Origin: a phage
Sequence record: PP754824.1
Reading direction: 5' to 3' (one strand)
DNA length: 42,515 nt
Position numbers and translations under genes: made by a program. Below the pieces are notes generated by a model. It searched no databases and was not told the origin of the DNA. It saw only the letters and a program-made list of their open reading frames with translations. Each line of letters starts with the position of its first letter. Within the stretch, counting starts at the first letter, position 1. This document shows positions 4,393 through 41,128 of this stretch, one piece after another.

Positions 4393-4899
4393 TTACGCTC
4401 TCGTATTTAGGTAGCCTTTATTTTCAGAGCCATGATTTTCATGATATCCGTTCAATTTGTCATACTGCGACCTTGCCAATGCAGCCTCCTCTATAGTGTC
4501 CTTGTAGCATATGAAGACTGTTTTACCAAACTCTCTAGCCTGAACAAGCCATCTATTCTCTCTTTTGCACCAGCTTACACCGTTTATTCCGCTTTTATTT
4601 CTTGATGATAGTGATCTGTTATTTGAGTTCTCTTTATTGCTTACTAACCTTAAGTTCTCTATTCTATTGTCACTTCTATTTTGGTTTATGTGATCTATGT
4701 ACATGCCTTTAGGGATTGCTCCATTGTGCATCTCCCACACCACCCTGTGACACCTGTATGCTTTTTGTCTATACTTTAGTATCACATAGCCAAATTTATC
4801 AACTCTTCCGGCCACCTCTCCAACCTTTGATACATTTGCTACTTTTACCTTTCTTATTAAAAGCCCGTCTCTATATTCAAAAATATCATGCCAATTCAT
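4393..4899 (-). CDS. HNH homing endonuclease (HNH_3 + AP2-like domain)
   Basis: IDHINQNRSDNRIENLRLVS HNH motif followed by SGINGVSWCKRENRW AP2-like segment; N-terminus MNWHDIFEYRDGLL is paralogous to 33191..33661; inserted between terS and terL. Confidence 0.85.
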   Translation of the reverse strand: MNWHDIFEYRDGLLIRKVKVANVSKVGEVAGRVDKFGYVILKYRQKAYRCHRVVWEMHNGAIPKGMYIDHINQNRSDNRIENLRLVSNKENSNNRSLSSRNKSGINGVSWCKRENRWLVQAREFGKTVFICYKDTIEEAALARSQYDKLNGYHENHGSENKGYLNTRA

Positions 4900-4970: not shown

Positions 4971-5492
4971 CAGCTTACTAATCACAGACTCCAGCGCTTC
5001 CTTCATCGTGCCAACGTCGTTAGCTGAAGAGTTATTGCTTATAGTAATCTCCTGCGGCTTATCGATGCCAAGTTCTTTGGAAATCATGCCAGGGTTAACA
5101 ATGCCAGACGCTGCCAGCTGATACTTCTGCTCGCGAATCACGGAATCAATGAATGCAATTACCTCGTCATAACCCGCCGACTTCCTCCATTTCTCTATTG
5201 CGCTATGGGTAACACCGCAGTAAAGGCAGAATCCTGTTAGTGTGAAGACTCGTGGCTTGTGCACCAGATTCTCGGTTACGACACCCTGGAAGCTGGCTGT
5301 CTCAATTGCCTTGATTGCCTGGCTCTCAGCCCATGAGAAGTATTTCACGGCCAGGTCGAATAGCTGCTCTGGGGTCATTATTCGGTTTTTGGACAGAGTT
5401 GTAATGTCAGAATACTTTTTGTTGTACATGGCTTTGAAGTTGCCAGAGCGAATCTTTTCTTGCGCCTGGCTGGTGAAGTTTTCGTCTTTCAT
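4968..5492 (-). CDS. putative terminase small subunit (174 aa)
   Basis: First gene after the early/late terminator and immediately upstream (HNH insertion apart) of terL; assignment by position and size. Confidence 0.5.
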   Translation of the reverse strand: MKDENFTSQAQEKIRSGNFKAMYNKKYSDITTLSKNRIMTPEQLFDLAVKYFSWAESQAIKAIETASFQGVVTENLVHKPRVFTLTGFCLYCGVTHSAIEKWRKSAGYDEVIAFIDSVIREQKYQLAASGIVNPGMISKELGIDKPQEITISNNSSANDVGTMKEALESVISKL

Positions 5493-5537
5493 TTGTGACC
5501 TCCTTTGTTGATGTAAGATTATACCATATTACAGACG

Positions 5538-5561
5538 TAAAAAAGCCCTCAAGAAGAGGGC
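5538..5561 (-). terminator. rho-independent terminator (minus strand)
   Basis: Hairpin GCCCTCTTCTTGAGGGC followed by a T-run on the minus strand; separates the early gene/tRNA region from the packaging operon. Confidence 0.6.
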
Positions 5562-5614
5562 GAATTATCGAACAACAACGAGAGAGATGAAACAACCAGA
5601 GAGTAGAACTTCTT

Positions 5615-5797
5615 TTACTTTCGCTCACGAACGTAAGTTACTAGGAATTTGTGGTAATCCGGGTCGGCACCAGACATTACCTTTACTTTCGCTACCGCTT
5701 CCTCTGAGGACTCAGCGGTAACCGACGCGATAAATTCTTGCTGACAATTCTTACAGCTTCGACCCATTAAGCGGATTGAAAGCTTAACATCCCACAT
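5615..5797 (-). CDS. hypothetical protein (60 aa)
   Basis: ORF track only. Confidence 0.4.
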   Translation of the reverse strand: MWDVKLSIRLMGRSCKNCQQEFIASVTAESSEEAVAKVKVMSGADPDYHKFLVTYVRERK

Positions 5798-5813
5798 AAT
5801 GAATCTCCTTTAT

Positions 5814-5889
5814 TGGTGTTCCGCGCTGGACTCGAACCAGCAACTAAGACTTAGGAGGTCTTTGCGTTATCCTGTTACGCCAGCAGAAC
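5814..5889 (-). tRNA. tRNA-Arg (anticodon CCU), CCA encoded
   Basis: Hand-folded cloverleaf on the minus strand: 7-bp acceptor stem GTTCTGC/GCGGAAC (one G-U), D-arm GCGT/ACGC, anticodon stem AAGAC/GTCTT with loop CTCCTAA, T-arm GCTGG-TTCGAGT-CCAGC, discriminator A, CCA. Confidence 0.8.
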
Positions 5890-5900
5890 AAATATTTAAG

Positions 5901-5917
5901 TAGCGATTGCGCTATTT
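5901..5917 (-). promoter_or_regulatory. box-family variant (AATAGCGCAATCGCTA) 12 nt upstream of the tRNA
   Basis: Palindromic variant of the repeated box; no -10 at the usual 22-nt spacing, which would fall inside the tRNA. Confidence 0.35.
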
Positions 5918-6088
5918 AAAGATTGCTGGTTACGCCTCCAGCGTCGAGTTTCTCGACCGGTTATTGAGGTTTGCGCCTTATCCTCTTTGGCCAACTTGCC
6001 ATGCACGCTACTTAATTAGCAATGGACTTTGTGTTGCGCTCCGTGCGCCGTTCTAGCTTGGCTAGCTCGTATGCCTACGAGATAAATA

Positions 6089-6355
6089 CTAATACTTTCC
6101 TGTCAGTGATGCAATCTCTTTTTCATACCTAACGAAATCCAGCGTGCTTTTACAAACCATTAGGTCAACATTTGAGTTAACAATCTTCCCGCAAACTGTA
6201 CAGATTAGCTTTGTCCTACACCCATCCTGATACGAATCCTCAAACCAACTTATGCGTCGGAATAATCTATATTTATGCTTATGTAGAATTCCGACCTTAA
6301 ACATTAGTGACTTGATCTTATTCATAAAGGCTATTCCCATTCTCATCGTGGTCAA
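6089..6355 (-). CDS. hypothetical protein (88 aa)
   Basis: ORF track only. Confidence 0.4.
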   Translation of the reverse strand: MTTMRMGIAFMNKIKSLMFKVGILHKHKYRLFRRISWFEDSYQDGCRTKLICTVCGKIVNSNVDLMVCKSTLDFVRYEKEIASLTGKY

Positions 6356-6554
6356 CGCGACCTTTTCTATACCCAGCTATCCACACAAATTTATCCCTCG
6401 CAATTAGCGTAGACACAGGACCCCAAACCTGAGTAATCAGTGCTGCGACAACTTTATCGTCTTTCTTCTTTGCGCCCAACTTTCCGTACTCGTCGTTCAG
6501 CTTGTCAGCCTGGTGCTTAACTGCGTTGAAGTATGCATCTTCTAATCCGAACAT
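6318..6554 (-). CDS. hypothetical protein (78 aa)
   Basis: ORF track; promoter box and -10 upstream. Confidence 0.45.
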   Translation of the reverse strand: MFGLEDAYFNAVKHQADKLNDEYGKLGAKKKDDKVVAALITQVWGPVSTLIARDKFVWIAGYRKGRVDHDENGNSLYE

Positions 6555-6583
6555 TTTCTGCCCTCTCGTTGTTTGATTGGTTG

Positions 6584-6630
6584 ATTATATGGCATCAATG
6601 CCTGTCACGTTTAGCTATTCGTGCTGTCTA
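6584..6630 (-). promoter_or_regulatory. conserved promoter box (CAGCACGAATAGCTAA), 22-nt spacer, -10 TATAAT
   Basis: Box overlaps the 3' end of the upstream small ORF; spacer contains hairpin GGCATTGATGCC. Confidence 0.55.
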
Positions 6631-6769
6631 CATCTGGCCCTCTATCAAAAGTTGCTAATACTTCGTCTGTATCGCCATCGCACTCAAACGTGTCACCGTA
6701 TTTCTCATTGAAGTAGATTAAATCCTCAACAAATTCATCACATTTCGGGAATAAACATGTGTTAAGCAT
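6611..6769 (-). CDS. small hypothetical protein (52 aa)
   Basis: ATG at 6769 overlaps stop of upstream ORF (ATGCTTAA); below the 60-aa ORF-track cutoff; stop codon lies inside the promoter box. Confidence 0.35.
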   Translation of the reverse strand: MLNTCLFPKCDEFVEDLIYFNEKYGDTFECDGDTDEVLATFDRGPDVDSTNS

Positions 6770-6920
6770 TTTTCTTATCCTCGCCCTTATTTAGACCACG
6801 CTTTTCCTCACGCTCTTTCCAGATATTCATTAACTCAAAGTACATCATGGCAATCTCGCCAGTCTCAGCATCATCCATCATTCTCTTAGCCCACTGGCTT
6901 GGTTTTTCGTAGTTATCCAT
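6762..6920 (-). CDS. small hypothetical protein (52 aa)
   Basis: Hand-translated minus-strand ORF in a tightly packed early gene array. Confidence 0.3.
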   Translation of the reverse strand: MDNYEKPSQWAKRMMDDAETGEIAMMYFELMNIWKEREEKRGLNKGEDKKNA

Positions 6921-6938
6921 CTAATCGCATGCCTTAAA

Positions 6939-7073
6939 TTATAGTTCGTTAGAATGCGTTTTAGCATCGTCTACGGCTGCCGAAATAATGTAAATAATCG
7001 CGAAGCCCAGAGACCACAACAACCATGGTAAAGCCTCAACTAAAACCTCGTCAATCATAAGTTCCGTGTGCAT
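6939..7073 (-). CDS. small hydrophobic protein (44 aa)
   Basis: Hand-translated; contains hydrophobic stretch LPWLLWSLGFAIIYIISAAV. Confidence 0.3.
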   Translation of the reverse strand: MHTELMIDEVLVEALPWLLWSLGFAIIYIISAAVDDAKTHSNEL

Positions 7074-12621: not shown

Positions 12622-12992
12622 TTTTTCCTGAATATTACCAAAAGCAGAATGATGATGATGCACAACATAATTCCACTTCCAACCCACGGGATTGCAGAAG
12701 AATCATTGTTTGTGATTTCAATCTTCTCAGCTGTGATTGTTGACGCTTTGATTGAGTTATCAGAAGTCTTCTTACCGCTTGAGCTATCAAGAGTGTCAAC
12801 ATTAGAGTTCTTCAACTCAGCCTTTGCATTGGAACTTGAATAAACCTTGTTTGTCAGACCTACGCCAACCTTATTGTTCTCCGCTCCAGCCTGGGCGCTA
12901 ATCTCTGGCTTACTGCCAATCAATCCGGTCAGTGCTGATGTTGCCGAACAACCAGAAAGAAGAATTGCCGCAGCAATTAATACAGTCTTCAT
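12606..12992 (-). CDS. unimolecular spanin (outer-membrane lipoprotein signal plus C-terminal transmembrane segment)
   Basis: Lipobox LLSGC near the N-terminus and hydrophobic C-terminus IMLCIIIILLLVIF followed by RKNKK; architecture of phage T1 gp11-type u-spanins. Confidence 0.65.
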   Translation of the reverse strand: MKTVLIAAAILLSGCSATSALTGLIGSKPEISAQAGAENNKVGVGLTNKVYSSSNAKAELKNSNVDTLDSSSGKKTSDNSIKASTITAEKIEITNNDSSAIPWVGSGIMLCIIIILLLVIFRKNKKAP

Positions 12993-13474
12993 TTACCAAC
13001 CCCGCTTAAGCACAATTTAATCTCCTCGTTACGCCTGTTTACGAGACCCTTGACTACCTTCAGCTTGCCATTTATTCGAGCCTTGTTCCACATCCCGAGA
13101 GCCTTGCAACCCTGCTCAACTTTACCCTGGTTAATCAGCCGTACAGCCGTTGACTTCCTCATTGCAGAACCGCCAACGTTATAACTAAAGCTGATTAACG
13201 CCGCCCTTGTTTCTGGTGAAATTGGATAGGTAACTGCATCCTGCACATACTTACCATGAATCTTAATGTGCCTCTCCAGCAAGTTACGGCACTCCCTTGC
13301 GCTGTATACTTTACCAACAATAACATCTGGGCCAGTCACACCAGAACAAACCGTAGGTATGCCAGCAATATCCATATATGGCCTGTACCCTACACCCTCA
13401 ACAAGCTCAATAACCGGCGCTGCGATGTATATTGCCGCTGCCGTCGCTGCACTAATTATCAGCCTTTGCTTCAT
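12989..13474 (-). CDS. SAR endolysin (GH24 lysozyme with N-terminal signal-anchor-release domain)
   Basis: Catalytic-triad pattern E-x8-D-x5-T (LVEGVGYRPYMDIAGIPTVCSG) after a weakly hydrophobic N-terminal segment AATAAAIYIAAPVI. Confidence 0.8.
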   Translation of the reverse strand: MKQRLIISAATAAAIYIAAPVIELVEGVGYRPYMDIAGIPTVCSGVTGPDVIVGKVYSARECRNLLERHIKIHGKYVQDAVTYPISPETRAALISFSYNVGGSAMRKSTAVRLINQGKVEQGCKALGMWNKARINGKLKVVKGLVNRRNEEIKLCLSGVGK

Positions 13475-26112: not shown

Positions 26113-26910
26113 TTATTTGTTTTCCTTTCTTATCTCAACTGGATTGTAATTAAGAGGCAGCCTCGAGGTGTCGCAAACCATAACTTGCGTCCTCATATTG
26201 CCAACCCAGCCGCCAGTTGGTGAAACATCAAGGTATACACCTGTAGGTATTATGGATATAAATAGATTACCGGATGAGTCAAGGTGACAGCATTCATTAT
26301 AGTAGTACCCACCCTGCAATGATGTTTCAACCCACCCCCTACCAACAGGCATTGATAATGCTGAGTTTGATACGTTCGCGGAGTTGACAATATTCCCGAC
26401 GTTAGTCCAGTTACTACCACCTTCCTGATCTGAATGGTTTGGATAACTTGGATCAAGCCATAGCACATCCCTAAGTTTGAGGAAGTACCAGCCAGAATCA
26501 AAGATTATAGAACCAGATTCATTAAATATCTGCATTCCATAATCACTTCTTTCTGGCGGGATCCACTTGTCAAATATGTAATACTCTACAGTTCCTAGCG
26601 GTATGTTCCACCACTTGAATAGGTCTATGCTTGTCTTTGTTATTGTGGTATTTGGGTTAACAAAATCAGGTGATATTTTGTTAACTCCAGGCTTCTGGCT
26701 TATCCTTGACCTACTTTCGTTCATCTTTAGAAATAGAAGAGGCGAATTCATTCCTGTGGTCATGAGGCTAATTGCAGATGTGGAGTTTGCATATGAGTAG
26801 AAATTTGAATCATTAAATGTACCAGAACTTCTTAGTACGTAATTTACATCCTCTGCGTCAGCAACCTTTAAACCATAGTCATTTATTAGTTCAACACCAT
26901 AATCACTCAT
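26113..26910 (-). CDS. tail-associated protein, candidate receptor-binding / distal fibre protein (265 aa)
   Basis: Last gene of the tail operon downstream of J; Asn/Ser/Gly/Tyr/Trp-rich like beta-structured fibre tips. Confidence 0.4.
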   Translation of the reverse strand: MSDYGVELINDYGLKVADAEDVNYVLRSSGTFNDSNFYSYANSTSAISLMTTGMNSPLLFLKMNESRSRISQKPGVNKISPDFVNPNTTITKTSIDLFKWWNIPLGTVEYYIFDKWIPPERSDYGMQIFNESGSIIFDSGWYFLKLRDVLWLDPSYPNHSDQEGGSNWTNVGNIVNSANVSNSALSMPVGRGWVETSLQGGYYYNECCHLDSSGNLFISIIPTGVYLDVSPTGGWVGNMRTQVMVCDTSRLPLNYNPVEIRKENK

Positions 26911-27278
26911 TTATTATAAACTCCTAAGTGAACATCAACACCACCAACTGCAAGTATGTACCCAAGATCGTCCGGATAGGAAACATGCCTGTTTGTATAC
27001 CTGAGTGTAACTGCATTTCCAGATATTATTATATCAGGTGATACTGGATACCAGTTAGTAGATGCAGGGACCACCACCCCTGTTCTGGTATTGCAATGCG
27101 CATAAGGCGTTCCATTTGAGAAGTTAACATTAAATGAGACTTCCCATGGTATGTTTGCAGATAAAGCCCTTATCAGTGGCACGCTATAAGTGAATAGCCT
27201 CCTGCTCATTATGCTGCTATTGTCAGCTACAAGCCGCCCCGCAGAATCGTACATCTCCCAACCATACAAACCAGCCAT
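26907..27278 (-). CDS. tail-associated hypothetical protein (123 aa)
   Basis: ORF track; immediately downstream of J. Confidence 0.4.
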   Translation of the reverse strand: MAGLYGWEMYDSAGRLVADNSSIMSRRLFTYSVPLIRALSANIPWEVSFNVNFSNGTPYAHCNTRTGVVVPASTNWYPVSPDIIISGNAVTLRYTNRHVSYPDDLGYILAVGGVDVHLGVYNK

Positions 27279-33689: not shown

Positions 33690-33734
33690 ATTATAGCAAG
33701 CCAAATCCTTTTGGCTTTACCATTTTGTGCTATT
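33690..33734 (-). promoter_or_regulatory. conserved promoter box variant (AATAGCACAAAATGGTAA), 22-nt spacer, -10 TATAAT
   Basis: Spacer hairpin AGCCAAAAGGATTTGGCT; RBS AAGGAG; drives the HNH gene. Confidence 0.55.
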
Positions 33735-36717
33735 AGTTGAAACCTCTCAAATAAGCAAATGCTCTGCCGCCCTGCTGGAAAGACTGAGCAATCTCTTCTG
33801 CTACAATTGCCTTAACGCCATTTTGCAGCGCCTTGGCCTGTTCCGGGTCGCTTCCAATCCCACTATTAACGTTAACGGTTATTCCGCTAACATTAACATC
33901 TGCACCACCAGAAACCAAGCCGCCATTTGCATAGCCCGAAGGCCCGCCTACAACACCGCCATTTGCGTAACCTCTCATCAATGCGTAAAGGTTTTTAACA
34001 CCAATCCTGCTTGTTGCTTCTTTTGTGAATACAAACTCCCCCTTATGTACAGTGCCTGCTGGTTGATATTTTCCACCGTCTCCAGTGTAACCGCCGCTAG
34101 CAAAGCCACCGCCAATCGCAGATGCGATAGACCCAATCGCGCCACCAGTACCACCAAAGCTACTTAAGCTAGACTCGATAGCCTTAACAATAAGAAGCTG
34201 AGTTGCAATTCTTGCAATCTGCTTGAGTATGTTTACAGTAAACTCCCTGAAGTTTGTTTCTCCAGTGGTTACAAGGTCAGTAATCTGGTCAGTAATGCCT
34301 TCAAATACCTTAGTGGTTAAACTTCCGGCAATTGAGAAAGCATCTGTAGCGCTTTCAGCCCAGTTAGCAAAGGATTGATTCACGCCAGCAAGCCAGTTTT
34401 CACGTAGCGCATCCTCTTGAGCATAGAAATTACGCCTTGCTTCGAGTAAAGCCTGAAAATCAGTGTCATCTACAGAGCCACCTTTGTTTAACTGATTGGA
34501 CTGAAGCGACTGAATCTCTCTGGCTCTCTGCTTCTCCCTGTCAGATAAATTAGCAGCAAGCGAAACATTATTTGCTTCATTCTTAATCTGCACAGTCTTC
34601 TTAAGGTTGTCATCAAGTAACTTGTTTGACCTCTCCTGAAGCACAATCTGGTCACCAAGCTCAGCCTTCTGTTTAGCCTGTTCAAGAATGATATTCTTCT
34701 GCGCAAGTAACTTGGCTTGTGATTTTGTAAGCGTACCATCCGCTTGCCTTTGCTCAAGTATTGCAAACTTCGCTTCTTCCTGGAATAACTGCTTGCGTTC
34801 GTTGCTTATTACATCACTTATTTTCTTGTGCTCTTGTAAAACCTTCAGCTGAGCCTGAAGAGCAAGAACACCAGATTCATAAGATAAAGTTAAATCCATT
34901 TCTTCTTTTACTGCCTTATTCCTCTCGCTCCTCGATTTCTTTATTGCATCAAGCTCGTCTGCTAGCGCTTTCTTCCTTGCTCCGAACTCCTTATCTGTTG
35001 ATGCATTATTCCCGCTCAGGTTAGTGTTATTGTTGCTCTCGACATAACCAAGTTCACCCTTCCTGATTCTCGCGTCTCGCTCAGCTATGCTTTTAGCTAA
35101 CTCAATGTTTTGCTTCTTGGCAGCATCGACAATCTTTTGCTGCTCAGCGATTGCTTCATTGCCTAAATCGCCAAGTCCCGGGATTGACTGAAGCGTCTTG
35201 GTTGCAGCGATAGCAAATTCACCAAGAAGAATGTCGCCTGAGTTTATGAACGACCTTATCTGCTCAATCGTCCCAGCAACAACGTCAGTTATTAAGTTAA
35301 GAGCACCAAGTGTCCTTTTGCCGATATCATCCCAAATATTACTTACAAACTTCCTGAAGCTATTCCATGCACTTTCTAGCGGATTGAGGCTTAGTGCAAC
35401 ATCTTCTAGCCTGTTTTCCATAACGTTAGCAAATAACTCAGTAGCTGCTGTTACAGCCTCAGTCTCTCCCGCTGTCTTCCTTAAGTTCTCTATGTGTTTT
35501 AACTGCCCACTTTGAAGGAAGTTAAATTGCTTATCAAGCTCAGCAAGGCCTTTAACAGGGTCTTTTGTAATTTGGTCAAAGTACCCGAGAATGGTCTTTG
35601 AATCGGTTGATGTTACTGCCGCCCACTGCGCTGTTGCCTTAGTTATCTTGTCTATCTGCGTAAGAGTTAGGTTTCCGTTTGCCACAAGGCTATTGGCTAT
35701 TTCCTGAATAAGTCCGCGAGTAGCTAGTGTTGATCTCTCAATTCCATCAACAACCTGATTTATCTGCGCTGTAGACGTGATAGTTGAGTTGCCAACCAAC
35801 GTTATCGTAGATGCTAGTCCTCGAGCATTCTTATCGGCCTGATAAGCCGCAACACCCAAAGCGCCAAGAGCCAGGCCTAGAGTCCCAACAACTGCTGTTA
35901 ATGGGTTAATGGCTGCCAGTGCAAACCTTGCTGTATTTCCAATACCGCCAAAACTATCCTTAATCTGCCCACCCTGTTGGATTGCAACAAGCCAGACTGG
36001 CATGCCGCTAGCAAGGGAAGTTCCGATATCTGTAATCTGAGCGGGTAGCTGGCGAATCGCTTGCTTGTACTGACCGGCGCTTAAACCTGACTTAAGAAAA
36101 GCGGAACTCTGCTTCTGCAACTGAACAGCAGATGCCTCGGCAGCCTTACCAATCCTGTCGATAATAGGCGCAGCTTGGTCACTAACCCCTAGCTGAGCAG
36201 CCTTAAGCTGAAGCAGTTCAGTCCTTGTAAGGCTTGCTGCATTCGCCTCGTTCTCAAGAGATTGAATGAACTTTTGCGCCGCTGCTGTTGCCTTTTCTTT
36301 GTCTATTGATGCCTGGAGTGCAGCCCGACCTTCCTCGCTAAGAGCAGCTTTAGACCTGTTGAGCTTATTGATTTGAGTTTCAATAACAGAGCCAAGCCTG
36401 AAGAATTCTTCATCAGGAACTATCCCAGATTCAAATGCTTTGTCTAATTCAGTTGCTGCCTTCTGCAACTTCTGGAATTTAGCGGCAGTTGGGTCTATGG
36501 CTTTCTGAAGTGATGCGAAAGATTTGCGCTGTTCCTCAAGCTGCCTTGCAGTGTCCCTTGCTTGAGTCTTGGCTACAAGCTCGGCGTTGATGAAGCTATT
36601 GATTCCCGTTGCAGCTTGCTCGTTTGCTTGCCTGAATTTCTGTAATGATTGCGTACCCTTATCGACCTGAGCGACGTCGACGGCTAGCGTGATACCAGCA
36701 ATTTCGTTAGTTGCCAT
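33733..36717 (-). CDS. tail tape measure protein (994 aa)
   Basis: Long Ala/Gln/Lys-rich alpha-helical protein with Gly-rich C-terminal segment, downstream of the G/G-T chaperone pair. Confidence 0.9.
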   Translation of the reverse strand: MATNEIAGITLAVDVAQVDKGTQSLQKFRQANEQAATGINSFINAELVAKTQARDTARQLEEQRKSFASLQKAIDPTAAKFQKLQKAATELDKAFESGIVPDEEFFRLGSVIETQINKLNRSKAALSEEGRAALQASIDKEKATAAAQKFIQSLENEANAASLTRTELLQLKAAQLGVSDQAAPIIDRIGKAAEASAVQLQKQSSAFLKSGLSAGQYKQAIRQLPAQITDIGTSLASGMPVWLVAIQQGGQIKDSFGGIGNTARFALAAINPLTAVVGTLGLALGALGVAAYQADKNARGLASTITLVGNSTITSTAQINQVVDGIERSTLATRGLIQEIANSLVANGNLTLTQIDKITKATAQWAAVTSTDSKTILGYFDQITKDPVKGLAELDKQFNFLQSGQLKHIENLRKTAGETEAVTAATELFANVMENRLEDVALSLNPLESAWNSFRKFVSNIWDDIGKRTLGALNLITDVVAGTIEQIRSFINSGDILLGEFAIAATKTLQSIPGLGDLGNEAIAEQQKIVDAAKKQNIELAKSIAERDARIRKGELGYVESNNNTNLSGNNASTDKEFGARKKALADELDAIKKSRSERNKAVKEEMDLTLSYESGVLALQAQLKVLQEHKKISDVISNERKQLFQEEAKFAILEQRQADGTLTKSQAKLLAQKNIILEQAKQKAELGDQIVLQERSNKLLDDNLKKTVQIKNEANNVSLAANLSDREKQRAREIQSLQSNQLNKGGSVDDTDFQALLEARRNFYAQEDALRENWLAGVNQSFANWAESATDAFSIAGSLTTKVFEGITDQITDLVTTGETNFREFTVNILKQIARIATQLLIVKAIESSLSSFGGTGGAIGSIASAIGGGFASGGYTGDGGKYQPAGTVHKGEFVFTKEATSRIGVKNLYALMRGYANGGVVGGPSGYANGGLVSGGADVNVSGITVNVNSGIGSDPEQAKALQNGVKAIVAEEIAQSFQQGGRAFAYLRGFN

Positions 36718-38610: not shown

Positions 38611-39009
38611 TTAGTCAAGACGAACATAGAAACGAACTGGAATAAACCAGCCAGATTTTGACTTCACTACCGGGTGAACTACTCCGCCCTCATAAATGTA
38701 GCCTGTGTCAAGCATTGTACCATCAAGCATTGATTCTGCCAATTGATTCGCCAACCTCCTTGCGCTATCAACACCATCACCTGGTGAGAAAAATACAGAG
38801 ACCTGAACCATGCCGACATAGTATTTGCACTTGCGACTCAAGCTATAGGTTACGGTATCGGCCTCAGTGTAGTCGTACTTCAGCCACATACCGCCATTAC
38901 TTGGAGGAGAGAATGCTACGTTTTCGTAGGAGATTGGATACCTGACTGGAAACGTTTTAACCAAATCAGTCACAAACCTCCTTGATGCTAAAGATAGCTC
39001 ATACTGCAT
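38611..39009 (-). CDS. tail terminator-like protein (gpU position) (132 aa)
   Basis: Gene order only. Confidence 0.45.
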   Translation of the reverse strand: MQYELSLASRRFVTDLVKTFPVRYPISYENVAFSPPSNGGMWLKYDYTEADTVTYSLSRKCKYYVGMVQVSVFFSPGDGVDSARRLANQLAESMLDGTMLDTGYIYEGGVVHPVVKSKSGWFIPVRFYVRLD

Positions 39010-40519: not shown

Positions 40520-41128
40520 TTATAGCACTAAACAATCGCCTTCGTGAACCCCATTGGCGTTTCCGTACTCGCCGAATATTTCTTTACACCAACTGTCGTA
40601 ACACTCCTTAGCCTCTTCAATTGTGTCAAACCTTTTAGCCATCCTTACATCTCCGCAATCCTTTTGTATCTGGGCTTTCCACTTCCCCCTTGATTTATCG
40701 TAGCTAACACCTTTAAATCCACTCTTGTTCCTTTTGTATAGGCTCGTATTCATCATGTTCTCACTTCGAGTAACAACCCTTAGGTTTTCCACCCTATTGT
40801 TTAATGAGTTACCATCAATGTGATCTATCTCACCTGTCGGCCAACTCCTGTGATGATAAAACCACTTTAACTTATGCATTGAAACGTGAAACTTCTTCCC
40901 GGAAACTTTAATACATAGCTTCCACATCTTACTTTCTGGGCATGTTGGGTTTGGAGTGAATTCACCTCCAGCAACCTTTCCGGCGCACCTTGAATTCCAT
41001 ACATTTGTAAACCTATCATTTCCCGGCTTTACTTTCCATGTCATAACGGGACTTTCAGAATCTGATTCAAGTCTTGATGTTAGCTCTTCGTGAGTTAGTA
41101 GTTCTTCAATTTTCATTTTCGCCTCCAT
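40520..41128 (-). CDS. HNH homing endonuclease (HNH_3 + AP2-like) (202 aa)
   Basis: EIDHIDGNSLNNRVENLRVVT HNH motif and SGFKGVSYDKSRGKWKAQI AP2-like segment; inserted after the major capsid gene. Confidence 0.85.
   Translation of the reverse strand: MEAKMKIEELLTHEELTSRLESDSESPVMTWKVKPGNDRFTNVWNSRCAGKVAGGEFTPNPTCPESKMWKLCIKVSGKKFHVSMHKLKWFYHHRSWPTGEIDHIDGNSLNNRVENLRVVTRSENMMNTSLYKRNKSGFKGVSYDKSRGKWKAQIQKDCGDVRMAKRFDTIEEAKECYDSWCKEIFGEYGNANGVHEGDCLVL
40521..40540 (+). promoter_or_regulatory. truncated box copy (ATAGCAC joined directly to TAAACAATCGCC) at the 3' edge of the HNH insertion
   Basis: Plus strand reads TATAGCACTAAACAATCGCC: the two halves of the long box lacking GAATTGC. Confidence 0.3.

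What the first reader, a model, noticed from the sequence alone, without database searches (positions are those of the whole stretch)
5814..6088. tRNA-Arg(CCU) followed by a ~200-bp structured non-coding region
The phage carries its own tRNA reading AGG, a rare codon in enterobacteria. The adjacent 5890..6088 region has no convincing ORF but several perfect hairpins (GTCGAGTTTCTCGAC, GCGCTCCGTGCGC, CTAGCTTGGCTAG) and a palindromic box variant at 5901..5917. It may encode a small RNA or processing signals; I could not fold a second tRNA there.
Basis: seen in the sequence. Interest (0 to 1): 0.45.

Follow-up and report, generated by a model that had tools for sequence, protein, structure and literature searches.

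The report
Conserved leader RNA carrying phage tRNA
The phage's arginine tRNA is real but ordinary; the 200 bases next to it are the promoter and folded leader of the tRNA's own transcript, an undescribed RNA element shared by T1-like phages into which different tRNAs have been slotted.

Summary
The tRNA-Arg(CCU) is confirmed at 5814-5889, but on the minus strand, so 5890-6088 lies upstream of it, not after it. That stretch is non-coding. Comparison with about 140 related phage records shows one self-contained unit: a sigma-70 promoter (-35 at 6114-6109, -10 at 6091-6086), a leader of about 190 nt with five supported hairpins, the tRNA, a 60-aa ORF, and an intrinsic terminator. terS then has its own promoter. 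In the leader stems 98.7% of cells pair, 10 pairs change on both sides (0-2 when slid), and wobble pairs are 38 G.U against 0 A.C, so the structure is an RNA read from the minus strand. The core (hairpin, invariant AACG, hairpin just after the promoter) recurs across Drexlerviridae. There it is followed by different tRNAs, by other small ORFs, or by a terminator, so the tRNA is swappable cargo. Rfam and the searchable literature do not describe it. Function is inferred: most likely a cis-acting leader, possibly a released small RNA. Second tRNA, boxA, put, guanidine-II, pac/ori and small-ORF readings were tested and not supported.

The parts
6116..6124 (-). A-rich stretch GAAAAAGAG just upstream of the -35 box (UP-element-like)
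   Evidence: Conserved as (T/G)AAAAAGAG in nearly all Braunvirinae members; coordinates. The UP-element resemblance is from memory, not tested.
6109..6114 (-). -35 hexamer TTGCAT of the leader promoter
   Evidence: Conserved TTGCAT/TTGACA/TTGACT with a 17-nt spacer in all subfamilies. It lies inside the last codons of ORF 6089-6355 in the window but is non-coding in MM01, FP, 12210I and others. The simple promoter scan missed it because TTGCAT matches only 3 of 6.
6099..6106 (-). Conserved spacer motif CTGACAGG (family CTGAYYGG) between -35 and -10
   Evidence: Near-invariant in Braunvirinae; also present as CTGATTGG or CTGACTGG in T1/TLS-type, ES and ESCO41 promoters. Function unknown.
6086..6091 (-). 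-10 hexamer TAGTAT; its first three bases are the stop codon of ORF 6089-6355. Predicted transcription start about 6078
   Evidence: TA(A/G)(T/C)AT sits 17 nt after the -35 in all members; coordinates. The start site is inferred from spacing only.
6066..6081 (-). H1, CTCGTAGGCATACGAG: a perfect hairpin only in this phage clade. Contains the family-conserved CGUAG near the RNA 5' end
   Evidence: Sequence CGTAG.CA.ACGAG is conserved, but the 6-bp stem is not. Its 5' arm probably lies at or before the transcription start, so it may not form in the RNA.
6053..6065 (-). H2 hairpin CUAGC-CAA-GCUAG
   Evidence: 4 of 5 pairs show changes on both sides (GC/CG/AU and others), 99% of cells paired. At least 10 different stems across Drexlerviridae.
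6049..6052 (-). Invariant single-stranded AACG between H2 and H3
   Evidence: Invariant in all 25 unique Braunvirinae sequences, and present in the ESCO41, Sf12/Rogue1 and T1/TLS-type leaders.
6036..6048 (-). H3 hairpin GCGC-ACGGA-GCGC (part of the invariant 16-mer AACGGCGCACGGAGCG, 6037-6052)
   Evidence: Invariant within Braunvirinae apart from loop changes in DTL. The stem is replaced by GCAUC/GAUGC, GUAGC/GCUAC, GUGGC/GCCAC, GCGG/CCGC in other subfamilies.
5999..6025 (-). H4: stem CCAU/AUGG closing a conserved loop UGCUAAUUAAGUAGCG
   Evidence: Outer stem covaries (GC to AU in 4 sequences; UG/UA/CG), 100% paired. The loop sequence is conserved, and it is the part that resembles boxA but fails that test.
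5966..5985 (-). Optional module GAGG-AUAAGGCGCAAA-CCUC
   Evidence: Present in the window, FP, JulesPiccard, OzMSK and JeanPiccard; absent from the closest relatives IMM-001 and ES and from the minimal 208-nt form. This is the stretch that is 75% similar to part of the tRNA, judged coincidental.
5943..5957 (-). H6 hairpin GUCGAG-AAA-CUCGAC
   Evidence: 3 of 5 pairs change on both sides (CG/UA, UA/CG, UG/AU), 99% paired.
5925..5942 (-). H7 hairpin GCUGG-AGGCGUAA-CCAGC, loop ending in CGUAA
   Evidence: 2 of 5 pairs change on both sides. A hairpin with a ...C(C/G)GUAA loop recurs in Rogunavirinae, ESCO41, Pantoea phage AAS23 and L076; Rogue1 has CCGC/GCGG.
5891..5924 (-).
   Evidence: Present only in the window/TR/IMM-001/ES clade, with a related form in MM01/IME542/ECH1. 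ES keeps the pairing through AAUCCUU/AAGGAUU against AAUCUUU/AAAGAUU in IMM-001. Unique in the window. 6 of 15 mismatches to the box consensus.
5814..5889 (-). tRNA-Arg(CCU) with encoded CCA end
   Evidence: ARAGORN; Rfam 59.3 bits. 97% identical to the Sf12 tRNA but 70-79% to the tRNA-Arg(UCU) of other Braunvirinae.
5615..5810 (-). RBS AAGGAG (5806-5810) and 60-aa ORF (5615-5797), phrog_2919, function unknown
   Evidence: ORF list; PHROG hit E = 1e-27; no Pfam hit above cut-off. Conserved downstream of the leader in all subfamilies.
5539..5561 (-). Intrinsic terminator GCCCUC-UUCUU-GAGGGC followed by U6, which ends the unit
   Evidence: Terminator scan; conserved in all 9 phages examined.
5518..5526 (-). 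Separate extended -10 promoter TGGTATAAT for terS (boundary of the next unit)
   Evidence: TG(G/C)TA(T/C)AAT is conserved after the terminator in 9 of 9 phages; coordinates.

Best explanation
On the minus strand, 6124-5539 is one self-contained transcription unit. A host-type sigma-70 promoter (-35 at 6114-6109, -10 at 6091-6086) starts an RNA at about 6078. Its first ~190 nt (to 5890) are an untranslated, folded leader with hairpins H2, H3, H4, H6, H7 and the clade-specific H8. The tRNA-Arg(CCU), a 60-aa ORF and an intrinsic terminator follow. The leader belongs to an undescribed RNA family found across T1-like phages (Drexlerviridae). Its constant core is a promoter-proximal pair of small hairpins joined by an invariant AACG, plus a 3' hairpin with a CGUAA loop. 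What follows the leader varies between phages: different tRNAs, other small ORFs, or a terminator. So the tRNA is cargo placed in a conserved expression slot. Shown: the tRNA, the conserved promoter-like elements, the RNA-level strand-specific base pairing, the family distribution, and the cargo swapping. Inferred: RNase P cutting at the tRNA 5' end (5889/5890) would release the leader as a discrete ~190-nt RNA. Also inferred: the leader acts mainly in cis, as a binding platform for RNA polymerase or another factor that secures transcription and processing of the untranslated or foreign cargo. The tRNA itself most simply supplies AGG decoding for an AGG-rich phage genome.
For: tRNA. Gene order and strand. 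Promoter: the -35/17-nt/-10 arrangement is conserved in 25 unique Braunvirinae sequences. It stays promoter-like where the sequence differs: ES has TTGACA-N17-TACATT, ESCO41 has TTGACA-N17-TATCTT, and Sf12 and the T1/TLS types also qualify. RNA structure: RNAalifold finds the leader hairpins alongside the tRNA cloverleaf. For the named leader structure, 98.7% of cells pair, 10 pairs change on both sides against 0-2 when partners are slid, and 0 of 500 shuffles reach the covariation score. Strand: 38 G.U against 0 A.C in the stems. Not coding. Not a known RNA: Rfam finds nothing at permissive thresholds in any subfamily. Distribution: 89 + 48 phage records, IMG/VR and metagenome contigs, none in 5,426 E. 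coli genomes, and only a phage-sized contig among 185,579 species genomes. Homology beyond Braunvirinae: a covariance model built from Braunvirinae alone finds ESCO41 (E = 9e-8), L076 (1e-6) and L073 (2e-4) at the syntenic site, and finds one copy in the window. Cargo swapping: the window tRNA is 97% identical to Sf12's while the leaders are about 51% identical; 12210I and T145P1 have 95% identical leaders but 72% identical tRNAs. AAS23 and L076 have no tRNA; Sd1, phiEB49 and L073 carry other tRNAs. Self-contained unit: conserved terminator followed by a conserved terS promoter. Codon supply.
Against: There is no transcript data, so the promoter, start site and RNase P release are all inferred. 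The simple promoter scan did not call this promoter. The link to the Sf12/Rogue1-type and L082-type leaders rests on synteny and short shared motifs, and the covariance model did not detect them; one unrelated contig scored E = 0.003. Hairpin-AACG-hairpin alone is not rare: about 3% of background AACG sites pass. Loops and linkers are more conserved than stems, which fits a trans-acting RNA or ribonucleoprotein as well as a cis element. In this phage no terminator directly follows the leader, and terS has its own promoter, so a need for antitermination is not evident here.
Confidence: 0.55

Rival explanations
1. The leader is a gene for a trans-acting small RNA. Its 3' end is made by RNase P cutting at the tRNA in this phage, and by an intrinsic terminator in T1/TLS-type relatives. 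Its conserved loops bind a host or phage RNA or protein.
For: Unpaired segments and loops (AACG, ACGGA, CAUUAAGUAGCG, CGUAA) are more conserved than the stems. T1/TLS-type versions end in a hairpin plus U-run, giving a discrete ~110-130-nt RNA. Within Braunvirinae the leader is more conserved than the tRNA it precedes. Short promoter-proximal phage transcripts can act as regulatory small RNAs, as in the Stx-phage example (PMC7547250, abstract seen).
Against: No target complementarity was identified. The middle of the RNA gains and loses whole modules. In AAS23 and L076 the same 3' hairpins run straight into an RBS, which is how a 5' UTR behaves. Nothing here tests stability or abundance.
Confidence: 0.25
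2. The hairpins are only passive processing or stability signals, or spacer, for the tRNA precursor, with no sequence-specific function.
For: Structured 5' ends commonly stabilise bacterial RNAs (general knowledge).
Against: A 16-nt block is invariant in 24 of 25 unique sequences and AACG is invariant across subfamilies, while the tRNA is swapped. The same leader occurs where there is no tRNA at all.
Confidence: 0.08
3. The conserved sequence is a DNA-level site (packaging pac site, replication origin, or operator) and the inverted repeats are protein-binding palindromes.
For: It lies about 400 bp upstream of terS, and pac sites are often near terS (general knowledge). The promoter spacer carries a conserved motif, CTGAYYGG, that could bind a protein.
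Against: Stems change freely while pairing is kept. All 38 wobble pairs are G.U on the minus strand and none is A.C, which double-stranded DNA recognition would not produce. GC skew shows no switch here. The TLS paper places and describes its pac site differently, as AGATTT, P22-like (PMC11447400).
Confidence: 0.05
4. The spacer is the remains of one or more decayed tRNA genes.
For: 5966-5993 is 75% identical to tRNA positions 5855-5882, and 5929-5941 resembles 5874-5886. Related phages carry extra tRNAs at this locus, and ESCO41 has a sub-threshold tRNA-like stretch there.
Against: ARAGORN and the Rfam tRNA model find nothing in the spacer even at E up to 10. The similar module is conserved in phages whose resident tRNA is different, so it was not copied from this tRNA. 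The ESCO41 remnant lies downstream of its tRNA, not in the leader.
Confidence: 0.03
5. The region encodes a small protein (for example the 36-aa GTG ORF at 5896-6006 on the minus strand).
For: ORFs of 36-49 aa exist in the window.
Against: The GTG start is lost in TR3, which is 99.5% identical. 14 of 25 relatives have no ORF of 20 aa or more, and the others are unrelated in sequence or frame.
Confidence: 0.02

Closest known systems
HK022 put RNA (cis-acting antiterminator RNA)
   Same: A phage RNA element made of two stem-loops placed just downstream of a host-type promoter, needing no dedicated gene product in cis (features from PMC9378689). Like put, the conserved core here (H2-AACG-H3) is promoter-proximal, and in T1/TLS-type relatives a terminator follows it.
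   Different: put is about 70 nt with long, bulged stems and a triple helix, and it binds the beta' zinc-binding domain. H2 and H3 are 4-5-bp hairpins spanning about 30 nt with no sequence similarity to put. No antitermination has been shown, and in this phage terS has its own promoter.
Lambda-type late-promoter leader (PR' short transcript; StxS small RNA of Stx phages)
   Same: A strong promoter gives a short structured leader upstream of late genes, and that leader can itself act as a small RNA (PMC7547250, abstract). From memory, Stx phages also carry rare-codon tRNA genes (ileZ-argN-argO) in this leader region.
   Different: No Q-like antiterminator or qut site has been identified. There is no sequence or structure similarity. 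The unit here ends at its own terminator before terS.
T4 tRNA-cluster stable RNAs (species 1 and 2, rnaD/rnaC)
   Same: Small structured phage RNAs of unknown function, co-transcribed with tRNAs and released by tRNA-processing enzymes (from memory, not checked here).
   Different: Unrelated phage family. No homology was tested or expected. The T4 RNAs lie within a multi-tRNA cluster, whereas this leader also occurs without any tRNA.
boxA/Nus-factor antitermination leaders (rRNA operons, CRISPR arrays, suhB)
   Same: A short conserved single-stranded motif in the leader of a long untranslated transcript that protects it from Rho (PMC7665894, PMC5725501). The H4 loop UGCUCAUUAAGU resembles boxA.
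   Different: It fails the published consensus GYTCTTTAANA at 2 positions in the family. In this window it also fails at C4, one of the two positions changed in the inactivating C4T/T6C mutant. The window-wide match rate equals chance.
Tn916 canT and other RNA antiterminators of mobile elements
   Same: A structured cis-acting RNA downstream of a promoter that lets transcription pass an insulating terminator into cargo genes (PMC11658703).
   Different: canT is 452 nt, Gram-positive and unrelated in sequence. The analogy is of function only and is untested here.

Membership tests
tRNA (Rfam RF00005), Arg isoacceptor CCU | Cloverleaf scoring above the family's gathering score; anticodon CCU at the anticodon position | tested here: met
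   59.3 bits against a gathering score of 29. ARAGORN calls tRNA-Arg, anticodon cct at position 35, 5814-5889 on the minus strand. An encoded CCA end is visible in the sequence.
Second tRNA or tRNA-like element in 5890-6088 | Any match to the tRNA covariance model, or an ARAGORN call | tested here: not met
   No ARAGORN call. No tRNA-clan match in 5890-6140 even at E up to 10. None in 10 relatives' spacers.
Drexlerviridae leader RNA (family defined here) | Sigma-70-type promoter with 17-nt spacer, then within about 25 nt a hairpin, invariant AACG, and a second hairpin | tested here: met
   Window: TTGCAT-N17-TAGTAT, H2 6065-6053, AACG 6052-6049, H3 6048-6036. The covariance model scores the window at 97.4 bits, E = 8e-28, as a single copy; the window is one of the model's seed sequences, so the score is by construction and only the single-copy result is informative.
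Drexlerviridae leader RNA (family defined here) | Base pairing kept through compensatory changes, specific to the sense strand | tested here: met
   98.7% of cells paired; 10 pairs with changes on both sides against 0-2 when slid. 38 G.U against 0 A.C.
Drexlerviridae leader RNA (family defined here) | 3' hairpin with a loop ending CGUAA, about 10-35 nt before the cargo (tRNA or RBS); located upstream of the small phrog_2919 ORF and terS | tested here: met
   H7 5942-5925, GCUGG-AGGCGUAA-CCAGC. The same feature occurs in Braunvirinae, Rogunavirinae, ESCO41, AAS23 and L076. Synteny.
Drexlerviridae leader RNA (family defined here) | Actually transcribed from the predicted promoter and released as a discrete RNA | not testable with these tools
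   No transcriptome of a T1-like phage was found in the searchable literature.
boxA (NusB/NusE binding site) | Match to GYTCTTTAANA, with C4 and T6 intact (C4T/T6C abolishes function; PMC5725501) | tested here: not met
   Family GCTCATTAAGT has 2 mismatches; the window's GCTAATTAAGT also has C4A; IMM-001 and ES have T6C. The 12-mer consensus at up to 3 mismatches gives 50 matches against 52.7 expected, and the leader site is not among them.
HK022 put RNA | About 70 nt, two long bulged stem-loops, sequence similarity to putL/putR | tested here: not met
   H2 and H3 are 13-nt hairpins with 4-5-bp stems. Features of put are taken from PMC9378689.
HK022 put RNA | Binds the RNA polymerase beta' zinc-binding domain and suppresses termination in cis | not testable with these tools
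   Needs in vitro transcription or reporter assays.
Guanidine-II riboswitch (mini-ykkC) | Two hairpins, each with an ACGR tetraloop (from memory); match to the Rfam model | tested here: not met
   No Rfam match at E up to 10. The H2 loop is CAA or UAA and the H3 loop has 5-8 nt.
TLS-type 21-nt intergenic box (aaATAGCACnnnTTGnTAAAA) | Match to the consensus, with a -10-like hexamer about 19 nt downstream | tested here: not met
   The best alignment of 5891-5924 has 6 of 15 mismatches, and the palindrome spacing is 4 rather than 5. The 17 genuine copies lie elsewhere in the window, and 13 of those have a -10-like hexamer at offset 18-20.
Terminator-ended small RNA or attenuator (as in T1/TLS-type relatives) | The leader ends in a GC-rich hairpin followed by a U-run directly before the next RBS | tested here: not met
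   In the window, H7 and H8 are followed by the tRNA, not a U-run. The first terminator is at 5561-5539, after the ORF. The feature is met in L075, L077, L080 and L082-L086.

The most novel reading that the evidence does not exclude
The promoter-proximal module (hairpin, AACG, hairpin) is a new class of nascent-RNA element that acts directly on host RNA polymerase or on a small ligand or protein. It would make transcription from this one promoter resistant to termination, working like put but structurally unrelated. That would create a protected 'cargo slot' in which T1-like phages exchange tRNAs and small accessory genes.
Probability: 0.15. Interest if true: 0.8.

Novelty: new variant of a known kind. 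Interest (0 to 1): 0.55.

Why it matters
T1-like phages are classic and very common coliphages, yet how they control transcription with only the host polymerase is largely unknown; the TLS re-annotation lists open questions of this kind (PMC11447400). This analysis identifies a conserved promoter plus structured leader RNA, supported by covariation and present across the family, sitting at the boundary between the early small genes and the packaging genes. It also shows that the phages' tRNA genes are interchangeable inserts in this leader. That gives a concrete element to test for regulation of phage gene expression. It offers a natural insertion site for engineering these phages. It also explains why tRNA content varies among otherwise similar genomes. 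If the element turns out to modify RNA polymerase or bind a factor, it would add a new RNA class to a very short list (put, EAR, canT).

Tried and rejected
(1) A second tRNA or tRNA-like fold in the spacer: ARAGORN and permissive Rfam scans found nothing. The 75% similarity of 5966-5993 to the tRNA is not shared by relatives that have other tRNAs. (2) Any known RNA family: no Rfam hit for any subfamily's leader. (3) The long-range inverted repeat 5893-5905 / 6006-6018, which the single-sequence fold uses: IMM-001 and ES do not keep it, and the local hairpin H8 is what is kept. (4) Host origin: no match in 5,426 E. coli genomes. The only hit among 185,579 species genomes is a phage-sized contig. 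(5) boxA: fails the consensus and critical positions, and the match rate is at chance. (6) Read-through into terS as the purpose of the leader: weakened because terS has its own conserved extended -10 promoter. (7) Origin of replication from GC skew: the skew only follows gene orientation. (8) Small ORFs: not conserved. (9) My first search for a 'palindromic box' family (TAGCGNNNNCGCTA) found nothing because the pattern was too narrow. The real box family appeared only with the TLS consensus, and the 5901 palindrome is not a proper member. (10) Pfam support for the GenBank labels 'DUF3667', 'transcriptional repressor' and '30S ribosomal protein S4' on neighbouring ORFs: none above cut-off. (11) Literature: eight searches found no description of this leader and no transcriptome of a T1-like phage. 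(12) The hairpin-AACG-hairpin criterion as a stand-alone detector: too unspecific, since about 3% of background sites pass.
Full report
WHAT THE WINDOW IS. The window is nearly a whole genome of a T1-like E. coli siphophage (Drexlerviridae, Braunvirinae). The 5000-7000 stretch is 99.7-99.9% identical to Escherichia phages Rao1, TR3 and CY1. All genes around the finding are on the minus strand. In order they are: small early-type ORFs, ORF 6355-6089, the region in question, the tRNA, a 60-aa ORF (5797-5615), then terS (5492-4968), an HNH endonuclease and terL.

CHECKING THE OBSERVATION. ARAGORN finds one tRNA in the window: tRNA-Arg with anticodon CCT at 5814-5889 on the minus strand. Rfam's tRNA model scores it 59.3 bits against a gathering score of 29. 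Because it is on the minus strand, 5890-6088 is the 5' flank of the tRNA, not what follows it. The 199-nt stretch folds better than all 200 dinucleotide shuffles on either strand, with z about -2.8 and -2.95. No second tRNA and no known RNA family is detectable there, even at E up to 10.

THE SPACER IS CONSERVED AND CARRIES A PROMOTER. A sensitive search with the spacer alone finds 89 phage records, plus IMG/VR and metagenome contigs. In every genuine one examined the element sits directly upstream of a tRNA-Arg. It is absent from 5,426 complete E. coli genomes. Among 185,579 species genomes it occurs only in one 46.7-kb, phage-sized contig. An alignment of 25 unique sequences shows an invariant 16-mer, AACGGCGCACGGAGCG; only DTL differs, and only in loop positions. 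Upstream of it lies a conserved A-rich stretch and then TTGCAT, 17 nt, TA(A/G)(T/C)AT. In the window these are -35 at 6114-6109 and -10 at 6091-6086. They overlap the last codons and the stop codon of ORF 6089-6355. In most relatives the same sequence is non-coding, because the upstream ORF ends earlier. Where the sequence differs it still reads as a promoter: TTGACA-N17-TACATT in ES and TTGACA-N17-TATCTT in ESCO41. The simple promoter scan missed the site because TTGCAT matches the consensus at only 3 of 6 positions. From the spacing I infer a transcription start near 6078, which makes the leader about 190 nt.

THE STRUCTURE IS AN RNA ON THE MINUS STRAND. RNAalifold on the 25 sequences recovers the tRNA cloverleaf and also five leader hairpins. 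I tested the leader hairpins alone. 98.7% of cells form standard pairs, against 23-42% when the 3' partners are slid by 1-3 columns. Ten pairs show changes on both sides, against 0-2 when slid. None of 500 column shuffles reaches the observed covariation score. H2 (6065-6053) has four of five pairs with double changes. H6 (5957-5943) has three and H7 (5942-5925) has two. The outer stem of H4 (6025-5999) has one double change plus a UG/UA/CG series. H3 (6048-6036) is invariant within this subfamily. Among the 675 cells counted in the H2, H3, H4, H6 and H7 stems, non-Watson-Crick pairs are 38 G.U on the minus strand, 0 A.C, and 5 other mismatches. Recognition of palindromic double-stranded DNA would not produce that asymmetry, so the structure is read from the minus strand. 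No ORF is conserved: 14 of 25 leaders have none of 20 aa or more, and the window's 36-aa GTG ORF loses its start codon in TR3, which is 99.5% identical. H1 (6081-6066) is a perfect hairpin only in this clade and probably straddles the transcription start. The long-range pairing used by the single-sequence fold is not kept in IMM-001 or ES, so I discard it.

THE tRNA IS CARGO IN A WIDER LEADER FAMILY. Most Braunvirinae carry tRNA-Arg(UCU) at this site, in at least three distinct sequence types. Only the window clade carries CCU. The window's tRNA is 97% identical to that of Shigella phage Sf12 (Rogunavirinae), while the two leaders are about 51% identical. Conversely, 12210I and T145P1 have 95% identical leaders but 72% identical tRNAs. 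Rogunavirinae (Sf12, phiEB49, Sd1, Rogue1) show the same layout in a diverged form. They have a promoter, TTGAC(T/G)-N17-TAGTAT, and the same transcript start, UAACCACGUAG. They have a hairpin, AACG, then GCAUC-GCGGA-GAUGC. Further on comes a hairpin with an invariant AUUGUGAAA loop whose stem covaries, and finally CCGG-AUUCCGUAA-CCGG about 10 nt before the tRNA. Sd1 has a tRNA-Trp between the leader and tRNA-Arg, phiEB49 has a tRNA-Val after it, and L073 has a tRNA-Ser. Pantoea phage AAS23 and locus L076 have the promoter and the 3' hairpins but no tRNA, and the leader runs into the RBS of a small ORF. T1/TLS-type loci (L075-L086) have a promoter, hairpin, AACG and hairpin, followed by a long hairpin plus U-run directly before the next RBS. 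Across all of these I count at least 10 different H2 stems and 5 different H3 stems, all pairing, each about 20-25 nt after a promoter-like sequence at the same syntenic position. As a check independent of my eye, I built a covariance model from the Braunvirinae 5' module alone. It finds one copy in the window (97 bits). It also finds ESCO41 (E = 9e-8), L076 (1e-6), L073 (2e-4) and L080 (1.5e-3) at the expected place. It does not detect the Sf12/Rogue1 or L082 types, and one unrelated GC-rich contig reaches E = 0.003. Homology is therefore well supported for part of the wider family and rests on synteny and motifs for the rest.

THE UNIT IS SELF-CONTAINED. After the 60-aa ORF there is a conserved intrinsic terminator (5561-5539). 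Immediately after that comes a conserved extended -10 promoter, TG(G/C)TA(T/C)AAT (5526-5518), in front of terS in all nine phages checked. Transcription from the leader promoter therefore does not need to continue into the packaging genes. The 60-aa protein belongs to phrog_2919, of unknown function. It has one invariant CxxC plus a His and no Pfam match above cut-off.

HOW IT MOST LIKELY WORKS. These points are shown: the tRNA, the conserved promoter-like signals, a strand-specific conserved RNA fold, the family-wide distribution, and independent exchange of the cargo. These are inferred from established knowledge. Host sigma-70 polymerase starts at about 6078; T1-like phages encode no polymerase or sigma factor (PMC11447400). 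RNase P cuts at the tRNA 5' end, which would free the ~190-nt leader. The tRNA supplies AGG decoding. AGG makes up 23.5% of Arg codons here (12.0 per 1000) and AGA 20.7%, and from memory both are an order of magnitude rarer in E. coli. For the leader itself I favour a cis-acting role: a platform bound by polymerase or another factor that secures expression of an untranslated or foreign cargo. Three things point that way. The same leader is kept whatever follows it. In some relatives it behaves as a 5' UTR or sits directly before a terminator and RBS. Its constant core is promoter-proximal. The main rival is a trans-acting small RNA. That reading is favoured by loops and linkers being more conserved than stems, and by the terminator-ended form in T1/TLS-type phages. 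Computation alone cannot separate these two.

COMPARISON WITH KNOWN SYSTEMS. The conserved H4 loop resembles boxA. However, it fails the published gamma-proteobacterial consensus GYTCTTTAANA at two positions. In this window it also fails at C4, one of the two positions changed in the inactivating C4T/T6C mutant, and IMM-001 and ES carry T6C. A window-wide scan with the consensus gives the chance number of hits. HK022 put is the closest functional analogue, being two stem-loops just after a promoter that act on polymerase. But put is about 70 nt with long bulged stems and a triple helix, so this element is not a member. Guanidine-II (two ACGR tetraloop hairpins, from memory) is excluded by the loops and by Rfam. 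The lambda PR' leader and StxS, the T4 tRNA-cluster stable RNAs (from memory) and Tn916 canT are analogies of layout only. Rfam 15 has no matching family. Eight literature searches found no description and no transcriptome of a T1-like phage.

VERDICT. The tRNA is ordinary and already annotated in relatives. It is the promoter and leader of the tRNA's transcript, and a member of an undescribed, covariation-supported RNA family of T1-like phages that serves as a slot for exchangeable tRNAs and small genes. The function remains unproven. I rate interest at 0.55.

Noticed in passing
window 4953, 6609, 7526, 9195, 10005, 14048, 16388, 18879, 20402, 21646, 22831, 24501, 25726, 26080, 33715, 37891, 41170 (19-nt matches): The 21-nt intergenic repeat described in phage TLS (aaATAGCACnnnTTGnTAAAA; its function is listed as an open question in PMC11447400) occurs 17 times here against 2.3 expected. 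It is a near-palindrome, TAGCA-N5-TGCTA. 13 of 17 copies have a -10-like hexamer starting 18-20 nt after the box (11 at exactly 19), against 2.4% at random positions. That places the palindrome centre near -41/-42, the geometry of an activator-dependent promoter.
   Followed up: partly
window 5518-5561 (minus strand): A conserved intrinsic terminator is followed immediately by a conserved extended -10 promoter, TG(G/C)TA(T/C)AAT, in front of terS in all nine T1-like phages checked.
   Followed up: partly
window 6099-6106; promoters in L003, L057, L073-L086: The spacer between -35 and -10 of the leader promoter carries a conserved motif, CTGAYYGG, across subfamilies, although its distance from the two hexamers shifts by about 7 nt between Braunvirinae and T1/TLS types. 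Promoter spacers are not normally conserved, so it may be a regulator binding site.
   Followed up: no
window 5814-5889; loci L053, L054, L056, L059, L073, L026, L036: The tRNA slot turns over. The anticodon is UCU in most Braunvirinae and CCU in the window clade and Rogunavirinae. Extra tRNAs sit beside it: Trp in Sd1, Val in phiEB49, Ser(GCU) in L073, and in PsgS01F a second tRNA annotated as Ile (also visible by eye in the EC3a sequence, though ARAGORN did not call it). The window's tRNA is closer to Rogunavirinae tRNAs (96-97%) than to those of its own subfamily (70-79%).
   Followed up: partly
L057 804-863 (phage ESCO41): A sub-threshold tRNA-like match (26 bits against a gathering score of 29) lies between tRNA-Arg and the small ORF. 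It may be a decayed tRNA in the same slot.
   Followed up: no
window 4393-4899 (minus strand): An HNH endonuclease ORF sits between terS and terL here and in TR3. IMM-001 has terS directly next to terL and an HNH gene elsewhere, which suggests a mobile homing endonuclease.
   Followed up: no
GenBank records of relatives (L002 IMM-001, L001 TR3, L037 Rtp, L034 DTL): Annotation problems. The labels '30S ribosomal protein S4', 'transcriptional repressor' and 'DUF3667' on small ORFs here have no Pfam support. IMM-001, Rtp, DTL, FP, ES, G8 and BEK2 leave the tRNA unannotated although it is present. One paper states that Rtp and DTL lack it (PMC8421802).
   Followed up: partly
L039 (Nitratidesulfovibrio liaohensis assembly, contig NZ_VSMK01000220.1); records MG065688 and PP134917: A 46.7-kb contig in a sulfate-reducer genome assembly carries a leader and tRNA nearly identical to coliphage IME542, so it is probably phage contamination. 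Records named 'Campylobacter phage A110b' and 'Pseudomonas phage PsgS01F' also carry the coliphage-type element, so their host labels deserve a check.
   Followed up: no
window 33733-36717, 40520-41128, 12989-13474, 38611-39009, 26907-27278: AGG codons are concentrated in some ORFs: 23 in the 994-codon ORF, then 9 of 11, 7 of 11, 5 of 8 and 5 of 7 Arg codons in the others. Several long ORFs have none.
   Followed up: no
window 6086-6124 / ORF 6089-6355: In this phage the last 12 codons and the stop codon of the upstream ORF overlap the UP-like stretch, the -35, the spacer and the -10 of the leader promoter (the stop TAG is the first half of the -10). In most relatives the homologous sequence is intergenic.
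   Followed up: no
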